In this document: piece after piece, positions 3,354-21,969 of the stretch | Position numbering within the stretch: position 1 is the first letter of the stretch | Layout of the letters: the number at the start of each line of letters is the position of its first letter | Assembly (NCBI GenBank): GCA_040220235.1 | Contig: JAVJTO010000161.1 | From: Coleofasciculus sp. B1-GNL1-01 | GTDB taxonomy: Bacteria; Cyanobacteriota; Cyanobacteriia; Cyanobacteriales; Coleofasciculaceae | Direction: 5' to 3' (one strand) | DNA length: 22,551 nt | Notes under the pieces: model-generated | What the model was told of the DNA's origin: nothing | Seen by the model: only the letters and a program-made list of their open reading frames with translations | Databases searched by the model: none | Made by a program: the position numbers and the translations under genes

Positions 3354-3442
3354 AGGACTTACGCAAAACCTCTATATGTAGGGTGCGTTAGCGTAGCGTA
3401 ACGCACCATTGCCGCGATATGTGGTGTAGTTTTGTAAGTCCT
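3354..3442. mobile_element. MITE-like repeat with an internal REP-like hairpin
   Basis: AGGACTTACGCAAAAC ... GTTTTGTAAGTCCT imperfect inverted ends; internal GTAGGGTGCGTTA-GCGTAGCG-TAACGCAC hairpin. Confidence 0.55.
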
Positions 3443-3495
3443 GTTCTGGTTGAGACAGCAAGAGGACACCCAACACCATCACCCACAACACAAAC

Positions 3496-4112: not shown

Positions 4113-4172
4113 ATTTACCTCGTTTTACAGACGACTAGATTTTTGTTTGCTTTAGCTATATCTAACTATAAT

Positions 4173-4187
4173 TCAGAATAATTCTGA
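4173..4187. promoter_or_regulatory. Putative Per box (PerR operator)
   Basis: Perfect 7-1-7 inverted repeat TCAGAAT-A-ATTCTGA between the divergent prx and perR genes; this is the geometry of Fur/PerR boxes. Confidence 0.7.
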
Positions 4188-4294
4188 TTTAAGAATGAGT
4201 CAATAGTAATAAATACTTATTTTTTAGTCTAGCTGCTAGACAAGTATAACTCCTAAAAAAGAGTGTTATAATTAAAGAACTGCTTATAAAAACG

Positions 4295-4720
4295 GTGAAT
4301 ACCATGCAGCAGCAAGCAGAAAACCTGATTAAAGTCTTGAAATCCAAGGGGTTGAGGGTTACCCCACAGCGATTTTCTGTCTATGCCAATTTGCTGACTC
4401 GTTTTGATCACCCGACGGCAGATCAAATCCTCAGCGATCTCAATCACCAAGCGCCAACATCTTCTCAAGCGACTGTATACAGTGCGCTACAAGCACTGCG
4501 GGAAGTGGGACTGGTGCGGGAAGTTTTATTAGAGGAAGGTGTCTGTCGTTACGATGCGAATGTTGATCGCCACCATCATTTTCGTTGTCGCTGTTGCGGT
4601 GCGATTAAAGATATTCCTTGGGATACATTTGAAAGCATTGACTTAAACCGCCTACCGCCCGGTATGCAAGCTGAAAGCTATGAGGTGACGGTGCATGGAG
4701 TCTGCGATCGCTGTCAATGA
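4295..4720 (+). CDS. perR: Fur-family peroxide-stress regulator PerR (start may be ATG at 4304)
   Basis: GLRVTPQR, HPTAD, SQATVY, HHHFRCRCC and C-terminal CDRC motifs; divergent from the peroxiredoxin gene. Confidence 0.88.
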   Translation: MNTMQQQAENLIKVLKSKGLRVTPQRFSVYANLLTRFDHPTADQILSDLNHQAPTSSQATVYSALQALREVGLVREVLLEEGVCRYDANVDRHHHFRCRCCGAIKDIPWDTFESIDLNRLPPGMQAESYEVTVHGVCDRCQ

Positions 4721-5884: not shown

Positions 5885-7606
5885 ATGAGCCTGCGCCAGA
5901 AAACCCTACTCCTGATTGGTCTCACCCTTGCGGGTTTAATCGGTGTCCTTTACGCCAGTCTATCGCTAATTTTAATCCGTAGTTTCGCGCAAATCGAGGA
6001 ACAACATGCGTATCGTAATGTGCGACGGGTACAGGAGGCGTTATTCGATGAATTAGATAATTTAGCTGTTTTAGCGGCTGATTATGGTGAGTGGGATGAT
6101 ACTTATGCGTTTATTGAAGATACCAGTCGAAGTTATATTCAAGAGAATCTCTCAGATACAAATTTAACGAATATTAACCTCAACCTGGTTTTATTCTTTA
6201 ACCGCCAAGATGAATTGGTTTTTGGTAAACATTTTAACTTAGCTCAGCAGCAAGAAATCCTAATTCCCACTCCCTTAATTCAACAACTGAATTCCGATAA
6301 TGTTTTACTACAGCATCCTGATACAACCAGTAGCGTTACCGGTTTAATTCTCTTACCCCAGGGACCGTTAATGATTGCCTCAAATCCCATTCTTACCAAC
6401 GAGGAAACTGGTTCAATACGAGGGTCTTTGATTATGGGTCGCTACCTGAATGACCAGCGTGTTGAGGCGTTAGCGGAACTCACCCAACTCAATCTCAAGG
6501 TCTACCGACTCGATAATACCCAATTACCCGCTAAATTGCAGACTGTGCAGTCTAGCCTATCTGAACAGGAGTCCCAACCCAATCAGGCTCCCATCTTAAT
6601 CCAGATTATAAGTCGGGAGGCGATCGCAGGCTATACCCTCCTCCGCGATATCTATGGTCAACCCGCGTTACTGGTTCAAATCGACATCCCACGAGAAATC
6701 TATCAACAAGGTCGCCTTAGCCTACGTTATCTTATTTTATCCCTTTTAGGTTTAGGGATTCTTTTTAGTGTAGGCACTCTTTTCCTATTGGAAAAAATAG
6801 TACTGTCTCGCCTAGCAAATTTGAGTAAAAATGTACAGGAAGTTGGCACAAGTAATGACCTATCGCTACGAGTTAGCGCCAAGGGGAATGATGAATTAAC
6901 CCACCTGGCGCAAACAATTAACTCGATGTTAGACGCCTTAGAGTCTTCTGCCAAAAACCTGGTTGCTGAACGAGAAAAGGCAGAAAATCTCCTCCTGAAT
7001 ATCTTACCGGAATCTATTGCCAAACGCCTGCAAAAAGACTCGGAGACGATTGCTGATAGTTTTGAAGAAGCCACAGTTCTCTTCTCCGATATTGTGGACT
7101 TTACTCGCCTATCAGGAGAAATCTCCCCCACCGAACTGGTCAATCTTCTCAATGAGATTTTCTCGCGATTTGACCGTTTAGTAGAACTCCATGGCTTAGA
7201 AAAAATTAAAACCATTGGCGATTCTTATATGGTTGTCGGCGGCTTACCCCTACCGCGTCAGGATCACGCTGAAGCCGTTGCCGAATTTGCCCTGGATATG
7301 CAAAAGGAAATTGATGCGGTTAATGCCCAACAAGGACACGCTTTCATGATGCGTATTGGCATTCACAGTGGTCCAGTCGTCGCTGGGGTGATTGGGTTGA
7401 AAAAGTTTATTTATGATTTGTGGGGTGATACGGTTAATACGGCTAGTCGTATGGAATCCCATGGTCTTCCGGGTTATATTCAAGTTTCCGATGCCACGTA
7501 TGAACATTTAAAAGATAAATACATCTTTCAAGAACGCGGTTCAATTTCCGTAAAAGGTAAAGGTGCAATGACTACCTACTTTCTCAAAGAACGTAAGCCA
7601 AAATAA
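5885..7606 (+). CDS. Membrane class III adenylate cyclase (TM-CHASE4-TM-HAMP-cyclase)
   Basis: 573 aa; DYGEWDDTY (CHASE4-type), HAMP motif DELTHLAQTINSM, VLFSDIVDFT, KTIGDSYM, KKFIYDLWGDTVNTASRMES. The Lys/Asp specificity residues indicate ATP as substrate. Confidence 0.93.
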   Translation: MSLRQKTLLLIGLTLAGLIGVLYASLSLILIRSFAQIEEQHAYRNVRRVQEALFDELDNLAVLAADYGEWDDTYAFIEDTSRSYIQENLSDTNLTNINLNLVLFFNRQDELVFGKHFNLAQQQEILIPTPLIQQLNSDNVLLQHPDTTSSVTGLILLPQGPLMIASNPILTNEETGSIRGSLIMGRYLNDQRVEALAELTQLNLKVYRLDNTQLPAKLQTVQSSLSEQESQPNQAPILIQIISREAIAGYTLLRDIYGQPALLVQIDIPREIYQQGRLSLRYLILSLLGLGILFSVGTLFLLEKIVLSRLANLSKNVQEVGTSNDLSLRVSAKGNDELTHLAQTINSMLDALESSAKNLVAEREKAENLLLNILPESIAKRLQKDSETIADSFEEATVLFSDIVDFTRLSGEISPTELVNLLNEIFSRFDRLVELHGLEKIKTIGDSYMVVGGLPLPRQDHAEAVAEFALDMQKEIDAVNAQQGHAFMMRIGIHSGPVVAGVIGLKKFIYDLWGDTVNTASRMESHGLPGYIQVSDATYEHLKDKYIFQERGSISVKGKGAMTTYFLKERKPK

Positions 7607-7765: not shown

Positions 7766-8614
7766 TTAATCAGCCATCAATAACCAAAATCCGGTATACG
7801 TCATTCCCGAATCATCCGGTTGCACCAACAAAAAATGTAATCCCTGACTCGTTTGCTTGCGTTGTTCATACAACCTCGCCGCCGCCGCTACTTCTTCATC
7901 TTCAAAGGTTGCCATTACCCAGCGTTCCACTAATCCGGCTTCTAAAATTAACCCATCTGGCGCACCGGGAATATAATTAAGTGCTACAGGTTGCACCTCT
8001 TGCAGCCAACGCGCTAATGGCATCGACTGACGCCCCCCATCAATTACGACTCCGGGAACAGCTACCGTTGAGGCTAAACCTAATTGGAGGGGTAAGAGTT
8101 GATTTGGCATCTGTAAAATTGGAATCGGGCGTTGGGCAAACCCCTCCTCAATATCCCCTGCGGGAATACTAGCAAATCGCCAGCGATCGCCCCAGAGATT
8201 TTCGGGTAAGGGTACGGGTGGCGGTTTGTCCAAGCTAAGGGGATTGTACGCTTCCCCAGTGTAATTCTCGTGCTGTTGATAATCTAACGTTCTTTCCTGT
8301 AATCGTTGCTTTAAGGTTGGGGTACGTCGTGTGGCTTCTACCTTAATCTCTAATTGTTGTCCCACCTCTTGGAATAAATTGAATGACTGCGGACGAAAGA
8401 TGTGAATCGCATCCGGTAATCCTGTCTTAGTCGCCGCGATTTTCACCTGCGATAGCAACCAATCACGGGTTACATCTGGCTGAGGACAGAATGATTGATA
8501 TATAACATTACCTGTGGTGTCACAAATTAATAATTCCCATAAGACTTGTCCCGTTTCATCTCGCAGAGGACGCCGATAAAAATCTGCTTGCCAAACATTC
8601 ATTGATAAAGTCAT
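7766..8614 (-). CDS. Tab2/ATAB2-family RNA-binding protein (DUF1092)
   Basis: 282 aa; WQADFYRRP, WELLICD, PPPVPLPENLWGDRWRF and GLHFLLVQPDDSGMTYTGFWLL motifs. Confidence 0.9.
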   Translation of the reverse strand: MTLSMNVWQADFYRRPLRDETGQVLWELLICDTTGNVIYQSFCPQPDVTRDWLLSQVKIAATKTGLPDAIHIFRPQSFNLFQEVGQQLEIKVEATRRTPTLKQRLQERTLDYQQHENYTGEAYNPLSLDKPPPVPLPENLWGDRWRFASIPAGDIEEGFAQRPIPILQMPNQLLPLQLGLASTVAVPGVVIDGGRQSMPLARWLQEVQPVALNYIPGAPDGLILEAGLVERWVMATFEDEEVAAAARLYEQRKQTSQGLHFLLVQPDDSGMTYTGFWLLMAD

Positions 8615-8837: not shown

Positions 8838-9000
8838 TATCTGTCATTGTGGCTTTTATGAACTACGACGACTTACTTCGTTGAAGTCGTCGTTTCTGAC
8901 GCTTCTGAGCTCCTAGTTGCTTCATGCTTCCACAATCAGTAGAGCTAGGCAGCTCTGCGTCTGAAGAGGTTCGTTCCAAACCCCTTGCCCAAATCTCATT
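8838..9000 (-). ncRNA. Predicted omegaRNA/reRNA of TnpB (5' boundary approximate)
   Basis: By established TnpB biology the scaffold overlaps the tnpB 3' end and right-end hairpin, and the guide is the flank beyond 8858 (AAAAGCCACAATGACAGATA). Inferred, not directly visible. Confidence 0.55.
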
Positions 9001-9960
9001 AATTTGAGCAGCATTAACATCTCTATCTTCGACGTGCTTGCAGTCGGGATTAGAGCAAACATGAACTCTATCGCTCAAAGTCTTAGGCGTTAATTCCCAA
9101 CATTTAGCGCACCGTTGAGTTGGCTTGAGCGTCCTAGTTGGTGACTCAACATAAAACCCACCTGCCTCAGCCGATTTGTAGGTTAATAAATCACCGACTC
9201 TACCAAACCCAACGTCAAGAATAGACCGATTTAACCCGGCTTTTTGCTTCTTACGCTTACCCTTCTTTGCTTTCCGAGTCATACCCTTGACGTTTAACTG
9301 CTCACCACCGATTAGGCTATTACCGCTCACTATATCGCTGGTTACTTTGTGCAGCCAATTTTCCCGTTGTCGGGCTATCTTGCTCTGAAGTTTAGAGATG
9401 CGCTTGCGTTCCTTTTTCCATCGTCTCGATCCCTTAACTTTTTTGTTCCTATTAGGCGGTTTTTTACGTCTTAACCGCTTTGAGGCGGCTTTAACCTTCT
9501 TATGTCCCTCCTGAATAAAATCTGGTTTAGCGATTTTTTCGCCAGTTGAAAGCGTCACCGCGTCTTGGCAGCCAAGGTCGATTCCGATTGAACCCGTACC
9601 TGTTTGACGGATTGGGTTGCACTGCACAGTGATTGACGCATACCACAAACCATTTCTGAAAAAGATTGTGCAGGTTGTTGGAGTTCCCCAGGTCCTAGCT
9701 TGCCCCCGCATTTGAATCTTTAAACCAAGGTCTCTTAGTTCCAAGTAACCGTTTTTACCGTTAGATAAAGCCTTCCAACCTGCTTTGTCTGGATATGTCC
9801 AGCCACTATACCGCCGCTTGGCTTTGAACTTAGGATACTTGCCTAATCCTTTGAAAAATCGCTTATAGGCAAAATCAACCCGCTTTAATGTAGCTTGTAA
9901 CGTATGAGAACCTAATTCGGCATACTCAATCCAAACTTTCTTAAACTCAGGCAAACAGTT
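8863..9960 (-). CDS. tnpB: TnpB RNA-guided endonuclease, exon 2 (365 aa; spliced product 420 aa)
   Basis: Begins NCLPEFKKVW; RuvC motifs GIDLG, GEQLNV, DRDVNAA; Zn finger CAKC...CSNPDC; FPK/YPKFK linker; in frame with exon 1 after intron removal. Confidence 0.92.
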   Translation of the reverse strand, partial: NCLPEFKKVWIEYAELGSHTLQATLKRVDFAYKRFFKGLGKYPKFKAKRRYSGWTYPDKAGWKALSNGKNGYLELRDLGLKIQMRGQARTWGTPTTCTIFFRNGLWYASITVQCNPIRQTGTGSIGIDLGCQDAVTLSTGEKIAKPDFIQEGHKKVKAASKRLRRKKPPNRNKKVKGSRRWKKERKRISKLQSKIARQRENWLHKVTSDIVSGNSLIGGEQLNVKGMTRKAKKGKRKKQKAGLNRSILDVGFGRVGDLLTYKSAEAGGFYVESPTRTLKPTQRCAKCWELTPKTLSDRVHVCSNPDCKHVEDRDVNAAQINEIWARGLERTSSDAELPSSTDCGSMKQLGAQKRQKRRLQRSKSS

Positions 9961-11988
9961 ATTAAACTCAGCGAGACTGTCACCAGTCCCGCTGGTCTTC
10001 AAAACCGTGCGTGAAAGTTTCCTCTCACACGGCTCCTCAACGATAAGGTGCAAGTCAAGCATACCTCATTACCCATTTATCCTCGACTCTTTCGAGCCTT
10101 TTGGTGAGCTTAGGCTTGGCACTGTTACAGCCAGATTGGTTGCCGAGACTGCCATCTGTGACGGTCTTTGTGTCATGGCAATGTCTATGTAGAAGCTGCC
10201 AATTATCGTAGGAATCCTTTCCACCTTGCGACTTAGGGATTCTGTGGTCAACTTCCATCACATCGTTTTCACGGAAAATTAATCCGCAGTGAGTACATTT
10301 CCCTTTTTGCTTCTTCAACAATGTTGCCAGTGTCTTAGGCATTTCAGGGTTGTTACCCATCCTTGAACTCCAATAAACCAGGTTGCCGTTGTATGGGGAC
10401 GATTCGCCCTTAACCTTTACATAGCGCTTAATTGGTGTTTCGCTATGTTTTAGTAACCGCATCGGGTTATTACCTTTTTGCCTGGTTGCGAATACCCAGT
10501 TGTCGCCGTCTATGGATTGCCAATACTTCTTTGACACCCATTCCCCGGATTTTTTGGGGTGTCGGCGCTTTGCCCAAGCTCTGAGCTTCTGGTACATGAG
10601 GTAATCTTGGTCACAGTAAGCTACCTTACTTACTTGTGTTGCGTAGTAGTTAGCCCATCCCCGAATAATCGGGTTCAGTTTCTTAATTAGCGCCACTTGT
10701 GGCGCATTCCTGTGGGCGTTAATGACTTCCGCTATTTGTTCGTAGTGTACCTTCTGCTTATCCTTGCTTGGGGTGATGATTGGTTTGATTCCTAGCAATT
10801 TTCCATACTTATCTTTATCAGAGTGGTATTTACCCACCTTGTATTGACGTATAGTAAAACCAAGAAAGTCAAATCCTGGTTGTTCTTGCTCATACGGGTT
10901 GAGGGTGTGAGCAAGTCTTGTTTTGCTAGGTTTTAATTCCAAACCCATGTCTTTTAACCATTCCTGGATTATCTCCTTGCAACTTTGGACAACGGTTAAG
11001 TCTTCGTGGAGAATTACGAAGTCGTCGGCATATCTAATCACAGATGGAGGATAGAAGTCCTTTTTTTTCCCATTCTCGGAATATCCTCGTCTTGGGAATC
11101 TCTTTTTGATTAGATTTTCCATCCCGTGGAGGGCAATATTAGCCAATAACGGGGAGATGACCCCGCCCTGTGGCGTACCCTCAGTTGTTGGAAACAACTG
11201 CTTGTTATCCATCACTCCCGATTTTAGCCAAGCTCGAACTTGTCGGCGGATGGTAGGGAATGTATTCAGTTTGTTTAGCAGTGCTTCATGGTCGATTTGG
11301 TCAAAACATTTGGCAATATCGGCATCAAGGACGTATTTGCCCTTGAACTTGATTGCATTATATATAGCTTGAACCGCATCATGACATGAGCGTCCGGGTC
11401 TGAAACCGTATGAGTTAGCTTCAAATCGCGCCTCCCATTCTGGTTCTAGTGCCAGTTTGACAAGCGCTTGCAACGCTCGGTCGTTCATTGTGGGGATGCC
11501 TAATGGTCGCTTCTCATCCTTACCAGGTTTGGGAATCCATACTCGCCTGGTTGGGGCGACTTTTGAGCTTAATTTCAGATTGGCAATCAAGTTGAGACGC
11601 TGCTTTGGGGTCAGCGATTTAACGCCATCCACACCTGCCGTCTTCTTCCCTTGATTGTCTTGTGTTACCCGACGAACCGAGAGACATTTTGCCGCCCAAG
11701 ACTTCATCAACATCTTTTGGAGTCTGCGAGTTGTTTTCACATCACCACGCTGAGAGGCTTGATAGATTCTTTTCTGCAACTTAAAGACTTTACGCTCTAG
11801 CTTTTGCCAAGGTATTGTCTTCCATTCCACCGTAGTCTTTAAACTCGTCTTAGACATATATATTGCTACTAGAGACTCCATCTTCCTTATCATCGTGAGT
11901 CTGTTAGCATATCTCTCCTATTACAAGAGAGCTTTCGCTTTTAATCCTCTTTCCATTTCAGGAATAGTTTCTACCCAACGATTCGCAC
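9961..11988 (-). mobile_element. Group II intron (IIB, chloroplast-like class), 2028 nt, apparently lacking domain I
   Basis: 5' end GTGCGAATCGTT at 11988; domain V GAGCCGTGTGAGAGGAAACTTTCACGCACGGTTT (10035-10002, AGC triad, GAAA loop); domain VI CAGCGGGACTG-GTGA-CAGTCTCGCTG with bulged A at -8 (9968); 3' end AAT at 9961. Removal rejoins tnpB in frame. Confidence 0.92.
10055..11857 (-). CDS. Group II intron reverse transcriptase/maturase with HNH endonuclease (600 aa from the likely start MSKTS; ORF open to 11893)
   Basis: RT0 GKKTAGVDG, RPLGIPT, SYGFRPGRS, DADIAKCFD, GTPQGGVISPLLANI, RYADD, FDFLG; domain X LNPIIRGWANYY; HNH CTHCG...VDH...LLHRHCHD; no internal stops. Confidence 0.96.
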   Translation of the reverse strand: MSKTSLKTTVEWKTIPWQKLERKVFKLQKRIYQASQRGDVKTTRRLQKMLMKSWAAKCLSVRRVTQDNQGKKTAGVDGVKSLTPKQRLNLIANLKLSSKVAPTRRVWIPKPGKDEKRPLGIPTMNDRALQALVKLALEPEWEARFEANSYGFRPGRSCHDAVQAIYNAIKFKGKYVLDADIAKCFDQIDHEALLNKLNTFPTIRRQVRAWLKSGVMDNKQLFPTTEGTPQGGVISPLLANIALHGMENLIKKRFPRRGYSENGKKKDFYPPSVIRYADDFVILHEDLTVVQSCKEIIQEWLKDMGLELKPSKTRLAHTLNPYEQEQPGFDFLGFTIRQYKVGKYHSDKDKYGKLLGIKPIITPSKDKQKVHYEQIAEVINAHRNAPQVALIKKLNPIIRGWANYYATQVSKVAYCDQDYLMYQKLRAWAKRRHPKKSGEWVSKKYWQSIDGDNWVFATRQKGNNPMRLLKHSETPIKRYVKVKGESSPYNGNLVYWSSRMGNNPEMPKTLATLLKKQKGKCTHCGLIFRENDVMEVDHRIPKSQGGKDSYDNWQLLHRHCHDTKTVTDGSLGNQSGCNSAKPKLTKRLERVEDKWVMRYA

Positions 11989-12153
11989 CTGTTGCTCAAA
12001 ATAGTCAACAGAATGACCAAAACGCTTGTACTGCGTCCTCCGGTTAGCAATTGCCGCGTTATAGAGTTCGCCGTGCATTTTCCTAGCCCAATGAAGCTGG
12101 TCACATTGAGCCTTGTTTGGATAAATTCTATAGGTCACTCTACGTGTTTTCAT
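11989..12153 (-). CDS. tnpB: TnpB exon 1 (55 codons)
   Basis: MKTRRVTYRIYPNKAQ...LYNAAIANRR...SVDYFEQQ is a typical TnpB N-terminus (YRIYP, LYN). The ORF track's last residues VRIVG* are intron sequence. Confidence 0.9.
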
Positions 12154-12168: not shown

Positions 12169-12285
12169 TAGAAATTTGACAAACTGCGGAATATTTAATT
12201 CCTAGTTTGTCTGCTATCCTTCCCCGACTTACTGTCGTTGAAGTCGGGGAATGCCGCAATTACGTTCAACAACCGTTACATCAAT

Positions 12286-15713: not shown

Positions 15714-16496
15714 TTACAGCTCCCCCAAACTCCTCGGTTCGTTAAAGATAACATAACCCACGCTCAACTCTTGGCTGGGCAGTTCTAAGTTAACCCCTTT
15801 CCCTTGCAAGAGGTTGCGCCAGTCTTCATCGGTAACGTGGGGCGAGTTAGCCAAACGAAGATTCGCTAAATGCGTTAATGCATCAAACCAAATTCGGTTG
15901 GCGACATAAACCTGATCCTCTCGCGGTTTAGCAGTATTGAGTTGATTCTCTAGGGTGGGAGTTAAAGGAATTCGCTGTATCCATCCTTGGGCAAAAACTG
16001 GACTAGCAGATTTGTCGCGATCGCAATACAGTGAAAAGTACCAGCGATACCAGTTACCCCTTTTCAGTGGTTCTTGAGTATCCGGAATGCTGAGACGAAC
16101 CAAACCCGGCGTTTGCGATAACTGAAACGGAAGTCGATAGACATCATTACCCGCTTCATCTTGCAACACAAACTCTCCCACAGGGGCTTGTTCTGGAGAA
16201 TAAGGAACATAAAACCACAATGTCGGGTGTGCCGCAACGGTTCTCCCCCAGTTCGATTCAGGAACTAACGCGGTTAGGGGAAAATCCATTGGGGGACACT
16301 TGCTACGACTTCCACCTCCAGTGCGGTTCCCACTTCTACCATCAGATTGAAAGTCAATAGTATCGTCATTTTCTTGGGCGAACACACCAGGCATAAGTAG
16401 TCCCGGAATGCTAGGAGACTCTGTGCCTAAGCCGGAGGGAACATAGCTCCAACTTATACTGTAGACGAATGGAATTAATAGGTGTTTAATCTTCAT
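15714..16496 (-). CDS. DUF928 domain protein, probably exported
   Basis: 260 aa; hydrophobic N-terminus, GNRTGGGSR-x-C, LTALVP, PTLWFYVPY, YRWYFSLYC, IWFDAL motifs. Confidence 0.85.
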   Translation of the reverse strand: MKIKHLLIPFVYSISWSYVPSGLGTESPSIPGLLMPGVFAQENDDTIDFQSDGRSGNRTGGGSRSKCPPMDFPLTALVPESNWGRTVAAHPTLWFYVPYSPEQAPVGEFVLQDEAGNDVYRLPFQLSQTPGLVRLSIPDTQEPLKRGNWYRWYFSLYCDRDKSASPVFAQGWIQRIPLTPTLENQLNTAKPREDQVYVANRIWFDALTHLANLRLANSPHVTDEDWRNLLQGKGVNLELPSQELSVGYVIFNEPRSLGEL

Positions 16497-18871
16497 ACCG
16501 CTCGGCAGAAATAAAATACCTTAACAATCGTAAATGCGACGATCGACGGCATCAGAGGTAACCAAAGTCCGGTTCGCCACAGGAAAACAAAGCCGCATCC
16601 CCATAGCGCGGCTAACGCGATACCCCCAGCTAGGATCAGATAGAGTCGCCGCTGATGCCATCGTTCCATGCATACACCTGCGATTCCAGACCAAGCCCAC
16701 ACCCAAAGCAGATCACCCCACTGTGGAAACCACCATACCACAGGTCGCTGATTTAATACGGCACTGATGATGTGACTCACCATCTGCGCCTGGATTTCAA
16801 CCCCTGAGAGTTCTTGAATCGGCTCAAACGCGGCACTGTAGGGAGTGAGATGATAGTCTCCATAGCTGTTGTCGATTGTACCAATCAGCACAATGCGATC
16901 GCGGATTAAGGTTGCCAATTCCCCATCTTTTGACCCGTCTAAAATTTGCTGTAGAGGGACTTTTTGGGCAATTCTCTGTGTCGCCCGGTAATTCAGCACC
17001 ACTTCAAAGCCACCGGAATCGAGATGATGATAGCCTCCCCTGTGGCGTTCCAATTTGGGGAAGATACGGGTGCCAATTTGAAACCGGGTGCGGGAAAGCC
17101 GTTTAAATTCTATATCCCGTGAGGTTAAATAGTGACGGGCAAGCTGAAAACTAAAGGATTGCTGAGTCTGACATTGGGTTCCCGCCGCCATGCCAAAAAT
17201 CTGGCGTCGGATGACTAAATCGGGATCATTGGGGAGATCACTAAACCCTACCTGCTGCACCGGAACGCCTGATTGCGGGGGGATTTCCGGGGATTCTCTC
17301 ACACCTCCCCCGATTTGGCAAATGTCGATAAATCGCTGATCTCGCTCACGAATCGCCTGTTTTGTGGCGTCGGGATCTAGTGTAAACGCCACTGGATCAC
17401 GATAAATGTCTAAACCAATGACAGCGGGTTGGTGGGGTTTAATTTTGTCCAAGAGGTTGACTAACGCCTGATCTGCTAGTGATCCTTGCCGTTTCATTCC
17501 CTGCTGATCTTGATATTGAATATCGGCGGCGTCTATGGTAATAATCACTAGGCGATCATCGGGTAGTTCTGTCGGGCGCATTCGCATCAAAGTATCAAAC
17601 GCCCAAAGTTCTGTAGATTGCAGGAACCCCAACCACCGCACTCCCATCACCAACCCTGTCGCGATCGCACTACTTAAGAGGAGAGTTTGCCAACAGGGGC
17701 GTCTTGCTCCCAGGATAGACGGTTTAGGGGCAGGTTTTGGCTGTTGCCGCCAATCTTGCCAAGTCGGTGCGATTGGTGTCGGTGTTTGTACAATGATCGG
17801 TAACCAGCTTGCACCGGGAAAGTCACCCTCTAATCCTTGCAATCGTTCCCGTGCTTTCCGTACCGCTAAATCGAAGCATCGCCCCCCAGCCAACTCAATC
17901 AGAAAGTATTTAAGGAAGGCTTGGGCTACATGATCGGGGACAGGTTCGCGCATGACAATAATTTGCGGAATCTGTAGATCCGACAGTTGTCGCGCTAATC
18001 CTAACCCATCACAGGAGTTAAAAATTGCCAATTGTAACCCCGCCGCGATCGCTTCATTGAGGGCGTGTTTTAATTGAGGAATGGTTAAACGTTCATGGGG
18101 GTTAATATAAATCTCCCCAGAATTTCCATCTCCTTGGCTAGAACTATGTCCGGCAAAAAAGAGAATCGTCCATCCCTGATGATGCCAAAGCTGCTCATTT
18201 AACTCCTGTCGGCGGGGTTCGACTAAAAAGACGGTTTCGGCACCATCCAGACTAGCAAGGTATTGCCGATCCACATCAATATTAAGTCCCGTAGCATCGC
18301 CGAGAATTGCCAAGATTCTCACGGTTTTAGTTGGCGTTTGAGTTGTTGTTCTCGGTTCAATGTTGAGAGAACTCAACGACACTTCGGCGTGGGGATAATC
18401 CCGAAAAAATCGCCAGGTATACCAGGGTAATTTTCTCAGGTTACTGTCTTCGGTTTGAAGAATGACGCGAATGTCTTGATTCGGGTTAAATTGCTGATAA
18501 AGTTGACGGCATATCGGACTAAATTCTGGGGAATCGAGCCAGGTATCAATCTGCTGTTGTAATTCCTGACAAACCTCAGCAAAATCCGTTTCGCCAACGT
18601 GAGTTACGTCAGTATCATCAATTTGGATATCTTCATCAATGTCGATGGGTTGAGGATGAGAGCGATGGATAATAAATGAACGTGCCTGATAGAGTAAATC
18701 GTAGAGTAATTGCCAGTGGCGGTAAAGTTCCACCAGATGAGGGGCGGCGGGTAAACTGCCGATTACCTGCCGATTTTGGGATTGATCTTGTACCTGTAAC
18801 TGAGCCGTAACCCAGGCAAAGCCATTGTACAAGTCTCCTCGTCCTAGGTTCAAGACCACTAAATTACTCAT
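16493..18871 (-). CDS. CHAT (caspase-like) protease fused to a CHASE2 sensor with C-terminal TM helices (likely start 18871)
   Basis: LPW, FFAGHS and IFNSCDG (His/Cys dyad), MREPVPD; TM helix; CHASE2 motifs ELWAFDTLMRMRP, VIGLDIYRD, DPDLVIRR, GVEIQAQMVS; three C-terminal TM helices and no further output domain. Confidence 0.9.
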   Translation of the reverse strand: MSNLVVLNLGRGDLYNGFAWVTAQLQVQDQSQNRQVIGSLPAAPHLVELYRHWQLLYDLLYQARSFIIHRSHPQPIDIDEDIQIDDTDVTHVGETDFAEVCQELQQQIDTWLDSPEFSPICRQLYQQFNPNQDIRVILQTEDSNLRKLPWYTWRFFRDYPHAEVSLSSLNIEPRTTTQTPTKTVRILAILGDATGLNIDVDRQYLASLDGAETVFLVEPRRQELNEQLWHHQGWTILFFAGHSSSQGDGNSGEIYINPHERLTIPQLKHALNEAIAAGLQLAIFNSCDGLGLARQLSDLQIPQIIVMREPVPDHVAQAFLKYFLIELAGGRCFDLAVRKARERLQGLEGDFPGASWLPIIVQTPTPIAPTWQDWRQQPKPAPKPSILGARRPCWQTLLLSSAIATGLVMGVRWLGFLQSTELWAFDTLMRMRPTELPDDRLVIITIDAADIQYQDQQGMKRQGSLADQALVNLLDKIKPHQPAVIGLDIYRDPVAFTLDPDATKQAIRERDQRFIDICQIGGGVRESPEIPPQSGVPVQQVGFSDLPNDPDLVIRRQIFGMAAGTQCQTQQSFSFQLARHYLTSRDIEFKRLSRTRFQIGTRIFPKLERHRGGYHHLDSGGFEVVLNYRATQRIAQKVPLQQILDGSKDGELATLIRDRIVLIGTIDNSYGDYHLTPYSAAFEPIQELSGVEIQAQMVSHIISAVLNQRPVVWWFPQWGDLLWVWAWSGIAGVCMERWHQRRLYLILAGGIALAALWGCGFVFLWRTGLWLPLMPSIVAFTIVKVFYFCRAV

Positions 18872-20132
18872 CAGTCGCAAACGGCGCGATCGCGAAGTTT
18901 TCGGTAATACTAAATTCACCCAGCGCTACCCGGATGCTGAACTGTTTCCCTACAGGACAGGTGAATCGTTTGAGTTGAATTAAATTATCGTGTATTCGGG
19001 CTTGATATTCCTGAAGTATAGCACCCGATTGAGAGAGTAAGGCGACGCGAATATTAGGGGGTAAGATAGGGGTTTCTCCCACCGGATACAACTGTACCCG
19101 AACACCGATTCGTTCGTCTATCTCTCGGGCTAAACCCACCAACAACGCCACGGCTTGATTGTTGAGTTCTATCCCCAAATCTATTACCTTAATCCCTTCT
19201 ACATAAACTTGTCTCTCTGGATTGCGTTGAGATCGTCTATGTCTAAAACTAACGGCAACCTGGACTGAATTTTGGTTTAAAAAGACGTCTAGAGATTGCC
19301 AACCCGACTCAAATATATTTTGCCACCATTGTCCTAGATTAATCCGGTGTGGATCAGGTTTTGCCACTCTTTGAACTTGTCTTAATCGTCTTTCATATAA
19401 GTCTTGACGCCATTTTTCATTTGTGACAAATGCAGCCCACTGGTCATAAGAAACCGCAAGACGCGGGGTGGAAACAGAGGATTGACTCAGTTGTGCCAAT
19501 AACCGTTCAGCGGTTTCCTGGGTTAAAGATGGTATTGATTCAACTTGTACATTTTTCGGAAAAACGGGTTCAGGTTGGAGTAACATCAGAGTCAGATCTG
19601 GAGTTAAATATTGTCCAGAAATATAATACGCGCGATCGCTTTCTTCGTATATCGCTATTGGCTTCAATTTTTGATAGCTAATATATCCCCACAGTCTCAT
19701 CCAGGATGTATCGGGACTATCCAGGTTTATTTGTACGGCGAGATAATAATCGGCTCTCCAACTGACAATATCCACCCACTCTTGAGGAACACAAACCTCA
19801 TCTAAATCTGTGCTATCTGTGGGAATCAGCGCCAGTCGAATGTTACCGAAGTTAATTAGGCTACCATTGATGAATTCCCATATACTGGGTAAGGATGATT
19901 CTGGAAAAGTACGAATTTGAGTCAATTTTTCGTTCTCTTGTCCTTCTTGACACCACCCCTCCAGCCAAGGGATAAATGCCGTTAAACAGAGTTCATTTAG
20001 GTAGGCATTACAGCGAGTCATCGCATTAGCATGATTTTGCGATCGCTGCCAAGCTTGTTTTTGTTGTTCTTCAGATAAATTCAACCAAATCTGATTGGGA
20101 TACGTCCGGGATAATTCCAGCAAATTAAACAT
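18864..20132 (-). CDS. DUF1822-family protein (likely start 20132)
   Basis: AYLNELCL, SIWEFING, VPQEWVD, ADYYLAVQ, LWGY, NLGQWWQNIFESGWQ, KVIDLG motifs; GGAG RBS before ATG 20132. Confidence 0.85.
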   Translation of the reverse strand: MFNLLELSRTYPNQIWLNLSEEQQKQAWQRSQNHANAMTRCNAYLNELCLTAFIPWLEGWCQEGQENEKLTQIRTFPESSLPSIWEFINGSLINFGNIRLALIPTDSTDLDEVCVPQEWVDIVSWRADYYLAVQINLDSPDTSWMRLWGYISYQKLKPIAIYEESDRAYYISGQYLTPDLTLMLLQPEPVFPKNVQVESIPSLTQETAERLLAQLSQSSVSTPRLAVSYDQWAAFVTNEKWRQDLYERRLRQVQRVAKPDPHRINLGQWWQNIFESGWQSLDVFLNQNSVQVAVSFRHRRSQRNPERQVYVEGIKVIDLGIELNNQAVALLVGLAREIDERIGVRVQLYPVGETPILPPNIRVALLSQSGAILQEYQARIHDNLIQLKRFTCPVGKQFSIRVALGEFSITENFAIAPFATDE

Positions 20133-21969
20133 TATACGACTCTCCACTATGAAGTTCATTTAAATCCAAACAATACAACTGGTTGAGCCAAGTTTCAACA
20201 GCTTGACTCACCTGGTCTTTTTCCGGCTCTAGAGAAATTCCATACGTTCCATAAGTCCACTGGAGTAAAGCCTTCTGTAATTGCTGCTTGGCTTGGTTAA
20301 TGGCTTGGCTTACATTTTCTTTGGGCAAAAGTCGAGCAATTTTTTCTTCAGGCATTCTCTGAGCATACCGCATTTGTATAATTTTTCGGGATTTAATTTC
20401 CGAGAAAGCCATCACGAGTTGGTCAGATATAACTTGCTTGTAGTGGTTTTTGATGAATTGCTCAATATAACTGATCTTGAGTTTGTTTATTGTTTCAATT
20501 GCCGCTAATTCTAAATCATGTTGAACCAAGTTTAATTTTTTCTCAATTGTATCGCTGGACTCATTGTCCAAACACTTAACAATAGTATCAATGCTATAGT
20601 TTTGACCATAGCGCAGTTTTAGGAGCAATTGTAAATGGGGTTCTAGAGATTCAATGGCAACTGTTAAAGCTCTATCGATTTCCTGATTTTGATGAGGATT
20701 AGTAAATCTCTTGGACAAAAACTCTTTTACATAGTTTTGACTCCAAACCTGCAAATCATTATCTAACTGAGTCCGAATCAGACTATCCATTTGAGTTAAT
20801 AGGGGCGATTTGTAGGTATTGGCGATATAACGAGCCACTGTTCCCTGATTGACTCCCACTTTCTTGGCAAACTGTTCTTGAACCAGCAGCGAAAGTTCGT
20901 GAGGATAGCACAAAGGCATAACTGCCGGACGGAATTGCCGAGGAATTTTACTCCGAATTTTGTCGAAATTTTGCTCAACGCGCTGAATTTGTGCCTGTAA
21001 ACTGGGAGTAATTTGATTAATAAATTCAGCAGAGTCTTGGTCAGACTCCAACGTTTCCCAAGGATTAACCGACTGATCATAGTGTTTTTCATAGCTATCG
21101 GCATCCCTAGACAGTTCCACCCGTTTTTTAGAGTTGCGTAACGCCTGAACACAGGTATTCATCCACTGTTGAATCGTCTCCGCTGTTACGTTTGAGCCAG
21201 ACGAAACTTGCAGGGGAGCATCAGCAAGAAATCGATTCAGATTATAGTTTCTAGCCGCTTCCTCAAAATCTGTTTGTTCGGGTTGAACCCACGTCCTGCT
21301 TTTTCTTTGACTTGGATTATAAAGCCGATTATTTTTATAAATAGGAACAAAGCATTGCCAAGCAAAGCAGTATTGAGACACCAGGGGTTCAGTTATCCCT
21401 TGTCGGAATAAAGCCTCTCTCAATTTTTGCACGGCATTATTGAATTTGCGGCGACTGGTGAGATCCACATTGCATAAGAGATGCCAGTCGGATTCCCAAT
21501 TGATTTGGTTAATAATAATATTCTTGAGTGCGCCTTCTACATAAGTTTTTAAATTAGCGGCGTTACTCGTATTGGCATTATGTCCATGAATGATTTTTTT
21601 AAAATGATCGCGATTGTATAGAACGTCAGTTGTCAGATCAAATAAATGGAGACAAGTGGCTAAAGGAAAGGGAAATTTTCGAGCAAACTGGCGGATAAAA
21701 TGGCAGCGAGAGGCATCCAAATAAGCAACCAGATGGAGATGGGCGAATTGTTGTTCCGATTCGGGTTGTGATTCCTGGTTAATAATACTACAGAAATAGT
21801 CAACATAATCATCACTGTGCCACTCTGGATGTAACTGAACCAGTTTTTCCATCTGGCGTTTCAGGCGCTGTTGCATCGATGGCTTGAAGCCACGATAACT
21901 AGGGTGACTGGTTTTCTCGTATAAAATACAGAATTGATCAATGATGTCCTGACGTTGTAAGTTCGACAT
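20125..21969 (-). CDS. Divergent sigma-70-like / multi-HTH transcription factor
   Basis: 614 aa; HLVAYL and NLKTY (region-2-like), SDWHLL, and sigma4-like segments VQEQFAKKVGVNQGTVARYI, LLKLRYGQNYSIDTIVKCL, IIQMRYAQRMPEEKIARLL; first gene of the DUF1822 operon. Confidence 0.65.
   Translation of the reverse strand: MSNLQRQDIIDQFCILYEKTSHPSYRGFKPSMQQRLKRQMEKLVQLHPEWHSDDYVDYFCSIINQESQPESEQQFAHLHLVAYLDASRCHFIRQFARKFPFPLATCLHLFDLTTDVLYNRDHFKKIIHGHNANTSNAANLKTYVEGALKNIIINQINWESDWHLLCNVDLTSRRKFNNAVQKLREALFRQGITEPLVSQYCFAWQCFVPIYKNNRLYNPSQRKSRTWVQPEQTDFEEAARNYNLNRFLADAPLQVSSGSNVTAETIQQWMNTCVQALRNSKKRVELSRDADSYEKHYDQSVNPWETLESDQDSAEFINQITPSLQAQIQRVEQNFDKIRSKIPRQFRPAVMPLCYPHELSLLVQEQFAKKVGVNQGTVARYIANTYKSPLLTQMDSLIRTQLDNDLQVWSQNYVKEFLSKRFTNPHQNQEIDRALTVAIESLEPHLQLLLKLRYGQNYSIDTIVKCLDNESSDTIEKKLNLVQHDLELAAIETINKLKISYIEQFIKNHYKQVISDQLVMAFSEIKSRKIIQMRYAQRMPEEKIARLLPKENVSQAINQAKQQLQKALLQWTYGTYGISLEPEKDQVSQAVETWLNQLYCLDLNELHSGESYNV

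What the first reader, a model, noticed from the sequence alone, without database searches (positions are those of the whole stretch)
11857..11988. Group II intron with precise ends and intact RT/HNH but apparently no domain I
Seen: the 5' end GTGCGAATCGTT (11988-11977) runs directly into GGGTAGAAAC-TATTCCT..AGGATTA (DII-like), GCGAAAG-CTCTCTT-GTAAT-AGGAGAG-ATATGC (DIII-like hairpin) and AGACTC..GAGTCT (DIVa-like hairpin), then the RT ATG only 131 nt from the 5' end. DV, DVI, the branch A and the 600-aa protein all look intact. Known: domain I is the largest domain (several hundred nt) and carries EBS1/2/3 and the DV docking sites needed for splicing and retrohoming. Inference: either (a) a one-off deletion after insertion that fixed a dead intron, or (b) a distinct class of domain-I-less group II retroelement that gets domain I in trans from a separate RNA (analogous to trans-spliced organellar introns, and in effect a separable guide) or uses protein-driven site recognition. 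The lack of decay elsewhere keeps (b) worth testing.
Basis: partly seen in the sequence, partly recalled or inferred. Interest (0 to 1): 0.92.

Follow-up and report, generated by a model that had tools for sequence, protein, structure and literature searches.

The report
Dead group II intron, internal deletion
This is an ordinary mobile group II intron that recently lost about 480 bases of its ribozyme in a single deletion, which leaves a dead copy inside a transposon gene and not a new kind of intron.

Summary
The window holds a precisely bounded 2028-nt group II intron (11988..9961, minus strand).

Intron positions 1-47 are colinear with the start of domain I in full-length relatives, and positions 49-2028 with their domain III onward. 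The junction is at window 11942|11941 and about 483 nt are missing.

All four close relatives in the genome search (92% identity: three in a same-genus genome, one in another genus) are full length at about 2.5 kb. They sit at the same tnpB site. Contigs from four other public runs, 99-100% identical beside the junction, also run on into full-length sequence.

The junction was found in no other genome or metagenome contig. It cuts through helices and not at domain borders. The genome holds no separate copy of the missing part.

Verdict: a recent one-off deletion, splicing-dead and immobile. The ORF looks undecayed because the event is young. The source reads could not be checked. Interest is low.

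The parts
9961..11988 (-). Group II intron, internally deleted copy (2028 nt; full-length relatives are 2511 nt)
   Evidence: GTGCG...AT ends and the Rfam DV/DVI hit. blastn to L015 gives two colinear blocks 483 nt apart.
11942..11988 (-). Retained 5' 47 nt: GUGCGAA, the 5' strand of the domain I basal helix (intron positions 8-12), and most of the first domain I hairpin
   Evidence: 95.7% identical to positions 1-47 of the full-length L015 and L016. Helix assignment comes from the consensus fold of 14 relatives.
11941..11942 (-). Deletion junction. About 483 nt are missing (positions 48-530 of the full-length form), with 1 nt (A) of microhomology.
   Evidence: Contigs of runs X1, X2, X4 and X5 all leave the window sequence at 11942 and run into full-length sequence. 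The X2 contig carries about 479 extra nt.
11896..11938 (-). Remnant of domain III: distal hairpin (11938..11907) and the orphaned 3' strand of the basal helix (GACTCA, 11901..11896)
   Evidence: Aligned to columns 634-678 of A3. The basal helix columns 624-629/673-678 show compensatory changes at 4 of 6 pairs.
10055..11857 (-). Intron-encoded protein, 600 aa: RVT_N, RT (with YADD), maturase (GIIM), HNH
   Evidence: Pfam hits. Same length as the L015 protein, with dN/dS 0.11.
9961..10038 (-). Domains V and VI with the 3' end
   Evidence: RF04357 at 55.3 bits and RF00029 at 54.8 bits, both above their gathering scores.
11989..12153 (-). tnpB exon 1 (55 codons, HTH_OrfB_IS605), ending ...GAGCAACAG (candidate IBS1)
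   Evidence: Pfam hit. Joined reading frame.
8863..9960 (-). tnpB exon 2 (OrfB_IS605 plus the Cas12f1-like TNB domain)
   Evidence: Pfam hit. 93.6% nt identity to an uninterrupted paralog on C42.

Best explanation
A full-length (about 2.5 kb) group II intron of a lineage that homes into a conserved site of IS605-type tnpB genes (codons YFEQQ|N) sits in this tnpB copy. It has lost about 483 nt in one deletion event. The deletion runs from position 48, inside the first hairpin of domain I, to position 530, just after the 5' strand of the domain III basal helix.

The lost part holds the rest of domain I, including the exon-binding loop, all of domain II, and half of the domain III stem. By established knowledge of group II ribozymes, domain I is the scaffold that binds the exons and docks domain V. 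It follows by inference that:
- the RNA can neither splice nor reverse-splice;
- tnpB stays interrupted, with translation stopping 5 codons into the intron;
- the copy is immobile.

The reverse-transcriptase gene, DV and DVI look intact only because the deletion is evolutionarily very recent.

Shown: the colinearity, the junction, its uniqueness, and the full-length state of relatives. Inferred: the loss of splicing and mobility, and that the deletion is real in the organism and not made by assembly.
For: (1) blastn of the intron to L015 (same genus): positions 1-47 match at 95.7% and positions 49-2028 at 92.4%, separated by 483 nt in L015. L016 gives the same result (alignment).

(2) All 4 relatives at 92% identity are full length: three copies of 2511 nt in G017 and one in G048. 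They lie at the homologous tnpB site (...AACAACAG|GTGCG, or ...GCAACAA| in a second paralog), so this lineage is an ordinary mobile intron.

(3) Read laying: contigs of 4 of 4 runs are 99-100% identical on the ORF side (X1 0 differences in 237 nt, X4 1 in 212, X5 1 in 139, X2 5 in 441). All leave the window at 11942 and run into sequence that matches the full-length DII/DIII or DI. One X2 contig spans both sides with about 479 nt between them.

(4) Uniqueness. In 52 family genomes, only the window's own row spans query 1-2028 among the 150 listed of 275 matches. The junction pattern gave 0 hits in genome contigs. It gave 15 hits in metagenome contigs, none extending beyond 30 nt.

(5) The consensus fold of 14 relatives has 134 pairs, 86 with compensatory changes. 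It places the break points inside helices: the 3' strand of the first DI hairpin, and just past the 5' strand of the DIII basal helix.

(6) 23 of 29 loci from other genomes carry the complete 5' part, profile positions 1/2-606/607. 13 of those 23 were rows of the profile and match by construction.

(7) The best matches to the deleted 483 nt in the own genome are 70-77% identical and lie inside other introns. A genome-wide profile scan finds no free-standing domain I.

(8) A review states that most bacterial group II intron copies are truncated or inactivated (PMC4424553, passages read).
Against: - The reads behind this assembly could not be examined. No served run holds more than 0.47 of the sampled words, so the junction itself has no independent read support.
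- Run X1 holds a 100% identical stretch joined to full-length sequence. The deletion could therefore be a minority variant, or conceivably an artefact.
- The ORF is complete and dN/dS against L015 is 0.11. That would also fit a protein still in use.
- Loss of splicing is inferred and not measured.
- One of the 14 rows in alignment A3, and one of the 23 full-length loci, is L024 from G005, an unpublished genome.
Confidence: 0.88

Rival explanations
1. Assembly artefact or minority variant. The organism's real locus carries the full 2.5-kb intron, and the contig lost about 483 nt through chimeric reads or a mis-resolved path among paralogous introns.
For: - The genome is fragmented into 172 contigs, and other intron copies break contigs (C14/C74 and C134/C117 ends), so introns did trouble this assembly.
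- A 100% identical ORF-side stretch joined to full-length sequence exists in run X1.
- The source reads are not available.
Against: - The two deletion ends share only 1 nt, so there is no repeat that an assembler could collapse.
- The closest paralog in the genome is only 71% identical, too far to create a false path.
- The window copy differs from the full-length relatives at scattered sites on both sides of the junction.
Confidence: 0.07
2. The deletion arose during retrohoming and not afterwards. The reverse transcriptase jumped on the intron RNA template from about position 531 to position 47 and then finished the cDNA to the true 5' end. This would give a precisely integrated but internally deleted copy from the start.
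For: - Both intron ends and both exon junctions are exact.
- Microhomology is minimal at 1 nt, as expected for template switching. That group II reverse transcriptases switch templates with little homology is recalled knowledge and comes from no call.
- The skipped part is the compactly folded DI-DII block.
Against: - Nothing in the sequence separates this from a later DNA deletion by slippage or end joining.
- No second example was found.
- Either way the outcome is the same: a dead copy.
Confidence: 0.2
3. A functional domain-I-less retroelement. The missing domains I-II are supplied in trans by another RNA, or target recognition is done by protein, and the element still splices or moves.
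For: - Intact 600-aa RT/maturase/HNH ORF, DV, DVI and exact ends.
- Tripartite organellar introns with a break in domain I exist (PMC4424553, passages).
Against: - The junction does not recur anywhere searched.
- All close and near-identical relatives are full length.
- The break cuts helices of DI and DIII and not a domain border or loop.
- No stand-alone domain I was found. The four domain-I-bearing loci in the genome that lie inside their contigs run on into their own DII-DIV, and the best match to the deleted part is 77% or less.
- Two uninterrupted tnpB paralogs with near-identical target sites remain empty in the same genome.
- The review says no trans-splicing intron had been reported in bacteria as of 2015.
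Confidence: 0.02

Closest known systems
Truncated or inactivated copies of bacterial group II introns (as summarised in the review 'Evolution of group II introns', PMC4424553; passages read)
   Same: A retroelement-type intron lying in another mobile element. It is disabled by loss of part of the ribozyme and is present as a single decaying copy.
   Different: Many described dead copies are truncated at an end (recalled, from no call). Here both ends and the whole ORF are kept, and only an internal 483-nt block (DI, DII and half of the DIII stem) is gone.
Full-length relatives in G017 (L015, L069, L070) and G048 (L016)
   Same: 92% nucleotide identity over positions 49-2028 and 95.7% over positions 1-47. 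Same tnpB target site, same 600-aa protein length, and the same DV/DVI.
   Different: They carry the 483 nt that hold domain I (with a loop complementary to the 5' exon), domain II, and the 5' strand of the DIII basal helix.
Tripartite trans-spliced organellar introns (Chlamydomonas psaA intron 1, Oenothera nad5 intron 3; named in PMC4424553)
   Same: Part of domain I is not encoded next to the rest of the intron.
   Different: In those introns the missing part is encoded elsewhere, the exons lie on separate transcripts, and the split is conserved. Here no complementary piece exists in the genome, both exons flank the intron in cis, and relatives are unsplit.

Membership tests
Group II intron (bacterial retroelement form) | 5' GUGYG and 3' AY boundaries at an exact exon junction | tested here: met
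   GTGCG at 11988 and AT at 9961. The joined exons give an open 420-aa TnpB.
Group II intron (bacterial retroelement form) | Domain V hairpin and domain VI with a bulged A | tested here: met
   RF00029 at 54.8 bits (gathering score 40) and RF04357 at 55.3 bits (gathering score 53).
Group II intron (bacterial retroelement form) | Intron-encoded RT / maturase / endonuclease protein in domain IV | tested here: met
   RVT_N, RVT_1, GIIM and HNH. 600 aa, the same length as the L015 protein.
Group II intron (bacterial retroelement form) | Domain I with exon-binding sites and receptors for DV | tested here: not met
   Only positions 1-47 remain. The profile of relatives matches only positions 517-607.
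Group II intron (bacterial retroelement form) | Domains II and III | tested here: not met
   DII (positions 455-516 of L015) is deleted. DIII lacks the 5' strand of its basal helix.
Group II intron (bacterial retroelement form) | Splicing or retromobility activity | not testable with these tools
   Needs RT-PCR or an in vitro splicing assay.
Trans-spliced (split) group II intron | A separately encoded piece carrying the missing domains | tested here: not met
   The deleted 483 nt find only 70-77% matches, all inside other introns. The genome-wide profile scan gives 8 hits and no free-standing DI. Two hits (C14, C74) run off contig ends and cannot be judged.
Trans-spliced (split) group II intron | The split form is conserved among relatives | tested here: not met
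   Relatives are unsplit and the junction is unique.
IS200/IS605-family TnpB (host gene) | HTH_OrfB_IS605, OrfB_IS605 and C-terminal TNB/zinc-ribbon domains in one open frame | tested here: met
   Pfam hits on both exons. The frame is open only after removing the intron in silico.

The most novel reading that the evidence does not exclude
The deleted copy is kept because its intact protein still works. It would serve as a free-standing maturase or reverse transcriptase for the other group II introns of this genome, or the crippled RNA would be rescued by domains I-III of another intron RNA. That would be a first bacterial case of a group II intron depending on a ribozyme part supplied in trans.
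Probability: 0.03. Interest if true: 0.6.

Novelty: already known. Interest (0 to 1): 0.08.

Why it matters
It matters little beyond annotation. The locus should be annotated as a tnpB pseudogene interrupted by a defective group II intron.

Its value is as a clean, datable example of how a bacterial group II intron dies. A single internal deletion removed the ribozyme scaffold while the protein gene is still untouched. Near-identical full-length copies are still present in public metagenome runs.

Had the domain-I-less reading been true, it would have been the first natural bacterial intron needing a trans-acting ribozyme part. The evidence does not support that reading.

Tried and rejected
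- **Rfam 5' models.** Rfam models for the 5' domains gave nothing in the window at gathering or at E up to 10. In seven own-genome loci, which include the complete L002 copy, only DV/DVI families and one Cobalamin riboswitch reached the gathering scores. Rfam silence over domain I is therefore uninformative. I built a profile from 14 relatives instead.
- **Junction pattern, genome contigs.** 0 hits. The tool notes that the window's own genome may be left out.
- **Junction pattern, metagenome contigs.** 15 hits, about the number I estimate by chance for a 20-mer with three two-fold positions. None extends beyond 30 nt of the intron.
- **The look-up of sequencing runs.** Parts of the stretch without cover in X1, X2 and X5 say nothing.
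- **Microhomology-driven deletion.** I first suspected a deletion between the 5' end and an internal look-alike, from the alignment to the 71% paralog L002. That alignment was misleading. The 92% relatives place the junction at 47|48 with 1 nt of homology.
- **Imperfect repeat near both ends.** A repeat (GGAAAGA...GATT) lies near both break points, but recombination in it would give a different product.
- **Fold of the 135-nt leader.** Not more stable than shuffles.
- **Earlier notes of this scan.** Nothing near this place or like this sequence.
- **Paper search for 'group II intron', tnpB, IS605.** 19 papers held all three terms and 10 were listed. I saw the listing only. No title or abstract start was about group II introns homing into tnpB. 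I make no claim that this is unpublished.

Full report
**What is there.** On the minus strand, window 11988..9961 is a 2028-nt group II intron.
- It starts GTGCG and ends AT.
- Rfam finds DV/DVI at 10037..9961 (RF00029, 54.8 bits, gathering score 40) and DV at 10038..9998 (RF04357, 55.3 bits).
- The long ORF carries RVT_N, RVT_1, GIIM and HNH. From the ATG at 11857 it is 600 aa.
- The host gene is an IS605-type tnpB. Exon 1 (12153..11989) has HTH_OrfB_IS605. Exon 2 (9960..8863) has OrfB_IS605 and the Cas12f1-like TNB domain.
- Removing the intron in silico gives an open 420-aa frame joined at YFEQQ|N.

The precise ends, the intact protein and the 131-nt leader are therefore real.

**Where the break is.** That is wrong.
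- A search of the 52 genomes of the family found four copies at 92% identity: three in G017 (same genus) and one in G048.
- Against L015 (G017), the window intron matches in two colinear blocks. Positions 1-47 match at 95.7% and positions 49-2028 at 92.4%, with 483 nt between them in L015. L016 (G048) gives the same result (alignment).
- The junction therefore lies at window 11942|11941.
- The full-length form is 2511 nt. All three G017 copies are full length and lie at the homologous tnpB site. Two have identical flanks, and the third is in a different tnpB paralog.

**Independent sequence at the junction.**
- No served public run holds the whole stretch. The best share of sampled words is 0.47.
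- I laid four runs from four studies. All four hold contigs that are 99-100% identical on the ORF side of the junction: X1 0 differences in 237 nt, X4 1 in 212, X5 1 in 139, X2 5 in 441.
- All of them leave the window sequence exactly at 11942. The loose ends read as the DII/DIII sequence of the full-length relatives.
- On the other side, X4 shows the domain I continuation. One X2 contig covers both sides with about 479 nt in between.
- The two flanks share one A.
- Near-identical full-length copies therefore exist, and the deletion is young. None of these runs shows the short form. None can be taken as the source of the assembly.

**What was lost.** A consensus fold of the 5' parts of 14 relatives gave 134 pairs, 86 of them with compensatory changes. 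One row, L024, is from the unpublished genome G005.

Mapped on L015:

| Element | L015 intron positions |
|---|---|
| Domain I basal helix | 8-12 paired with 445-449 |
| First DI hairpin | 13-50 |
| Stem-loop complementary to the 5' exon | 358-382 |
| Domain II | 455-516 |
| Domain III basal helix | 523-528 paired with 570-575 |

- The loop of the 358-382 stem-loop is complementary to the 5' exon (...AACAACAG). I take this as a candidate EBS1, which is my inference.
- The deletion (48-530) removes the last three bases of the first hairpin, the rest of domain I, all of domain II, and the 5' strand of the domain III basal helix.
- It cuts through helices and not at domain borders.
Four of the six pairs of that helix covary.
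- The residual 135-nt leader folds no better than shuffles.

**Is the short form a recurring kind?** No.
- Among the 150 listed of 275 matches in 52 family genomes, only the window's own row spans positions 1-2028.
- A pattern across the junction found nothing in genome contigs.
- The same kind of pattern found 15 places in metagenome contigs. None resembles the intron beyond 30 nt.
- A profile of the 5' part finds the complete part (profile positions 1/2-606/607) in 23 of 29 loci from other genomes. 13 of those 23 were rows of the profile.
- Of the other six loci, four are partial (L017, L034, L040, L042) and two gave no hit (L031, L038).
- The window matches only profile positions 517-607.

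**Is domain I supplied from elsewhere?**
- The deleted 483 nt of L015 find only 70-77% matches in the own genome, all inside other introns.
- The profile scan of all 8.66 Mb gives 8 hits:
  - C45, C34 and two on C83 run on into their own domains II-IV.
  - C46 is a remnant, and C161 is the window.
  - C14 and C74 are 5' ends that run off contig ends. They belong with 3' ends on C134 and C117 that carry an HNH ORF tail. I read these as a multi-copy intron that broke the assembly.
- No free-standing domain I of this lineage was seen.
- Two uninterrupted tnpB paralogs with near-identical target sites are still empty. One is on C42 (93.6% nt identical, site ...GAGCAGCAA|AACTG). The other is on C45 (site ...GAACAACAA|AACTC). 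This fits immobility but does not prove it.

**The protein.** The ORF has the same length as that of L015, and dN/dS is 0.11. This reflects selection along the whole divergence of the two copies. It says nothing about the short time since the deletion.

**Mechanism and verdict.**
- By established knowledge, domain I carries the exon-binding sites and the docking surface for domain V. An RNA without it cannot splice or reverse-splice.
- I therefore read this as a dead, immobile copy that leaves tnpB interrupted. After the last exon-1 codon the frame reads five codons and then stops.
- The sequence cannot say whether the deletion happened in DNA after insertion or by a template jump of the reverse transcriptase during insertion.
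- An assembly artefact is unlikely, because the ends share only 1 nt and the nearest paralog is 71% identical. It could not be excluded without the source reads.
- The review PMC4424553 (passages read) states that most bacterial copies are truncated or inactivated. It also states that no trans-splicing intron had been reported in bacteria.
- This is a known kind of thing, and interest is low.

Noticed in passing
window 11989-12010 and 9940-9960; L015, L069, L070, L016: This intron lineage homes into one conserved site of IS605-type tnpB genes (codons YFEQQ|N). It does so in at least three genomes and in two different tnpB paralogs within G017, so it is a mobile element specialised on another mobile element.
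   Followed up: partly
G000 C42:30626-31888 and C45:9632-10792 (L002 4586 onward): Two uninterrupted tnpB paralogs in the same genome carry near-identical, unoccupied versions of the intron target site.
   Followed up: partly
G000 C14:3070-3207, C74:27370-27507, C134:1-259, C117:10325-10583: 5' ends and 3' ends (with an HNH ORF tail and DV/DVI) of another group II intron lie at contig ends in two copies each. This is a multi-copy intron that broke the assembly.
   Followed up: partly
G000 C83:14411-15083 and 16995-17730 (L004, L006): Two intron 5' parts and two DV/DVI hits lie about 2.6 kb apart on one strand. They are either tandem or nested introns.
   Followed up: no
G000 C46:56595-56814 (L005): A second intron copy in this genome lacks most of its 5' part. 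The profile matches only positions 426-606, and the RT matches are fragmented.
   Followed up: no
L034 (G001:C1) 3420-3477 and 4161-4430: The 5' part of a 71% relative is split into two profile pieces about 680 nt apart. This may be an insertion inside the ribozyme.
   Followed up: no
window 12221-12250: A perfect 10-bp inverted repeat (TCCCCGACTT ... AAGTCGGGGA) lies about 70 nt upstream of the tnpB start. It could be the subterminal hairpin of the IS left end. No tnpA lies beside it.
   Followed up: no
window 15714-21969: A minus-strand gene row encodes DUF928, a CHAT+CHASE2 protein, DUF1822 and a protein with sigma-70 region 4. Elsewhere in the window are a CHASE4-HAMP adenylate/guanylate cyclase (5885-7606) and a Tab2-like RNA-binding protein (7766-8614).
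   Followed up: no
L002 1140-1282 (G000 C45): A cobalamin riboswitch (64.8 bits) lies a few hundred bases from the 3' end of the full-length paralogous intron.
   Followed up: no
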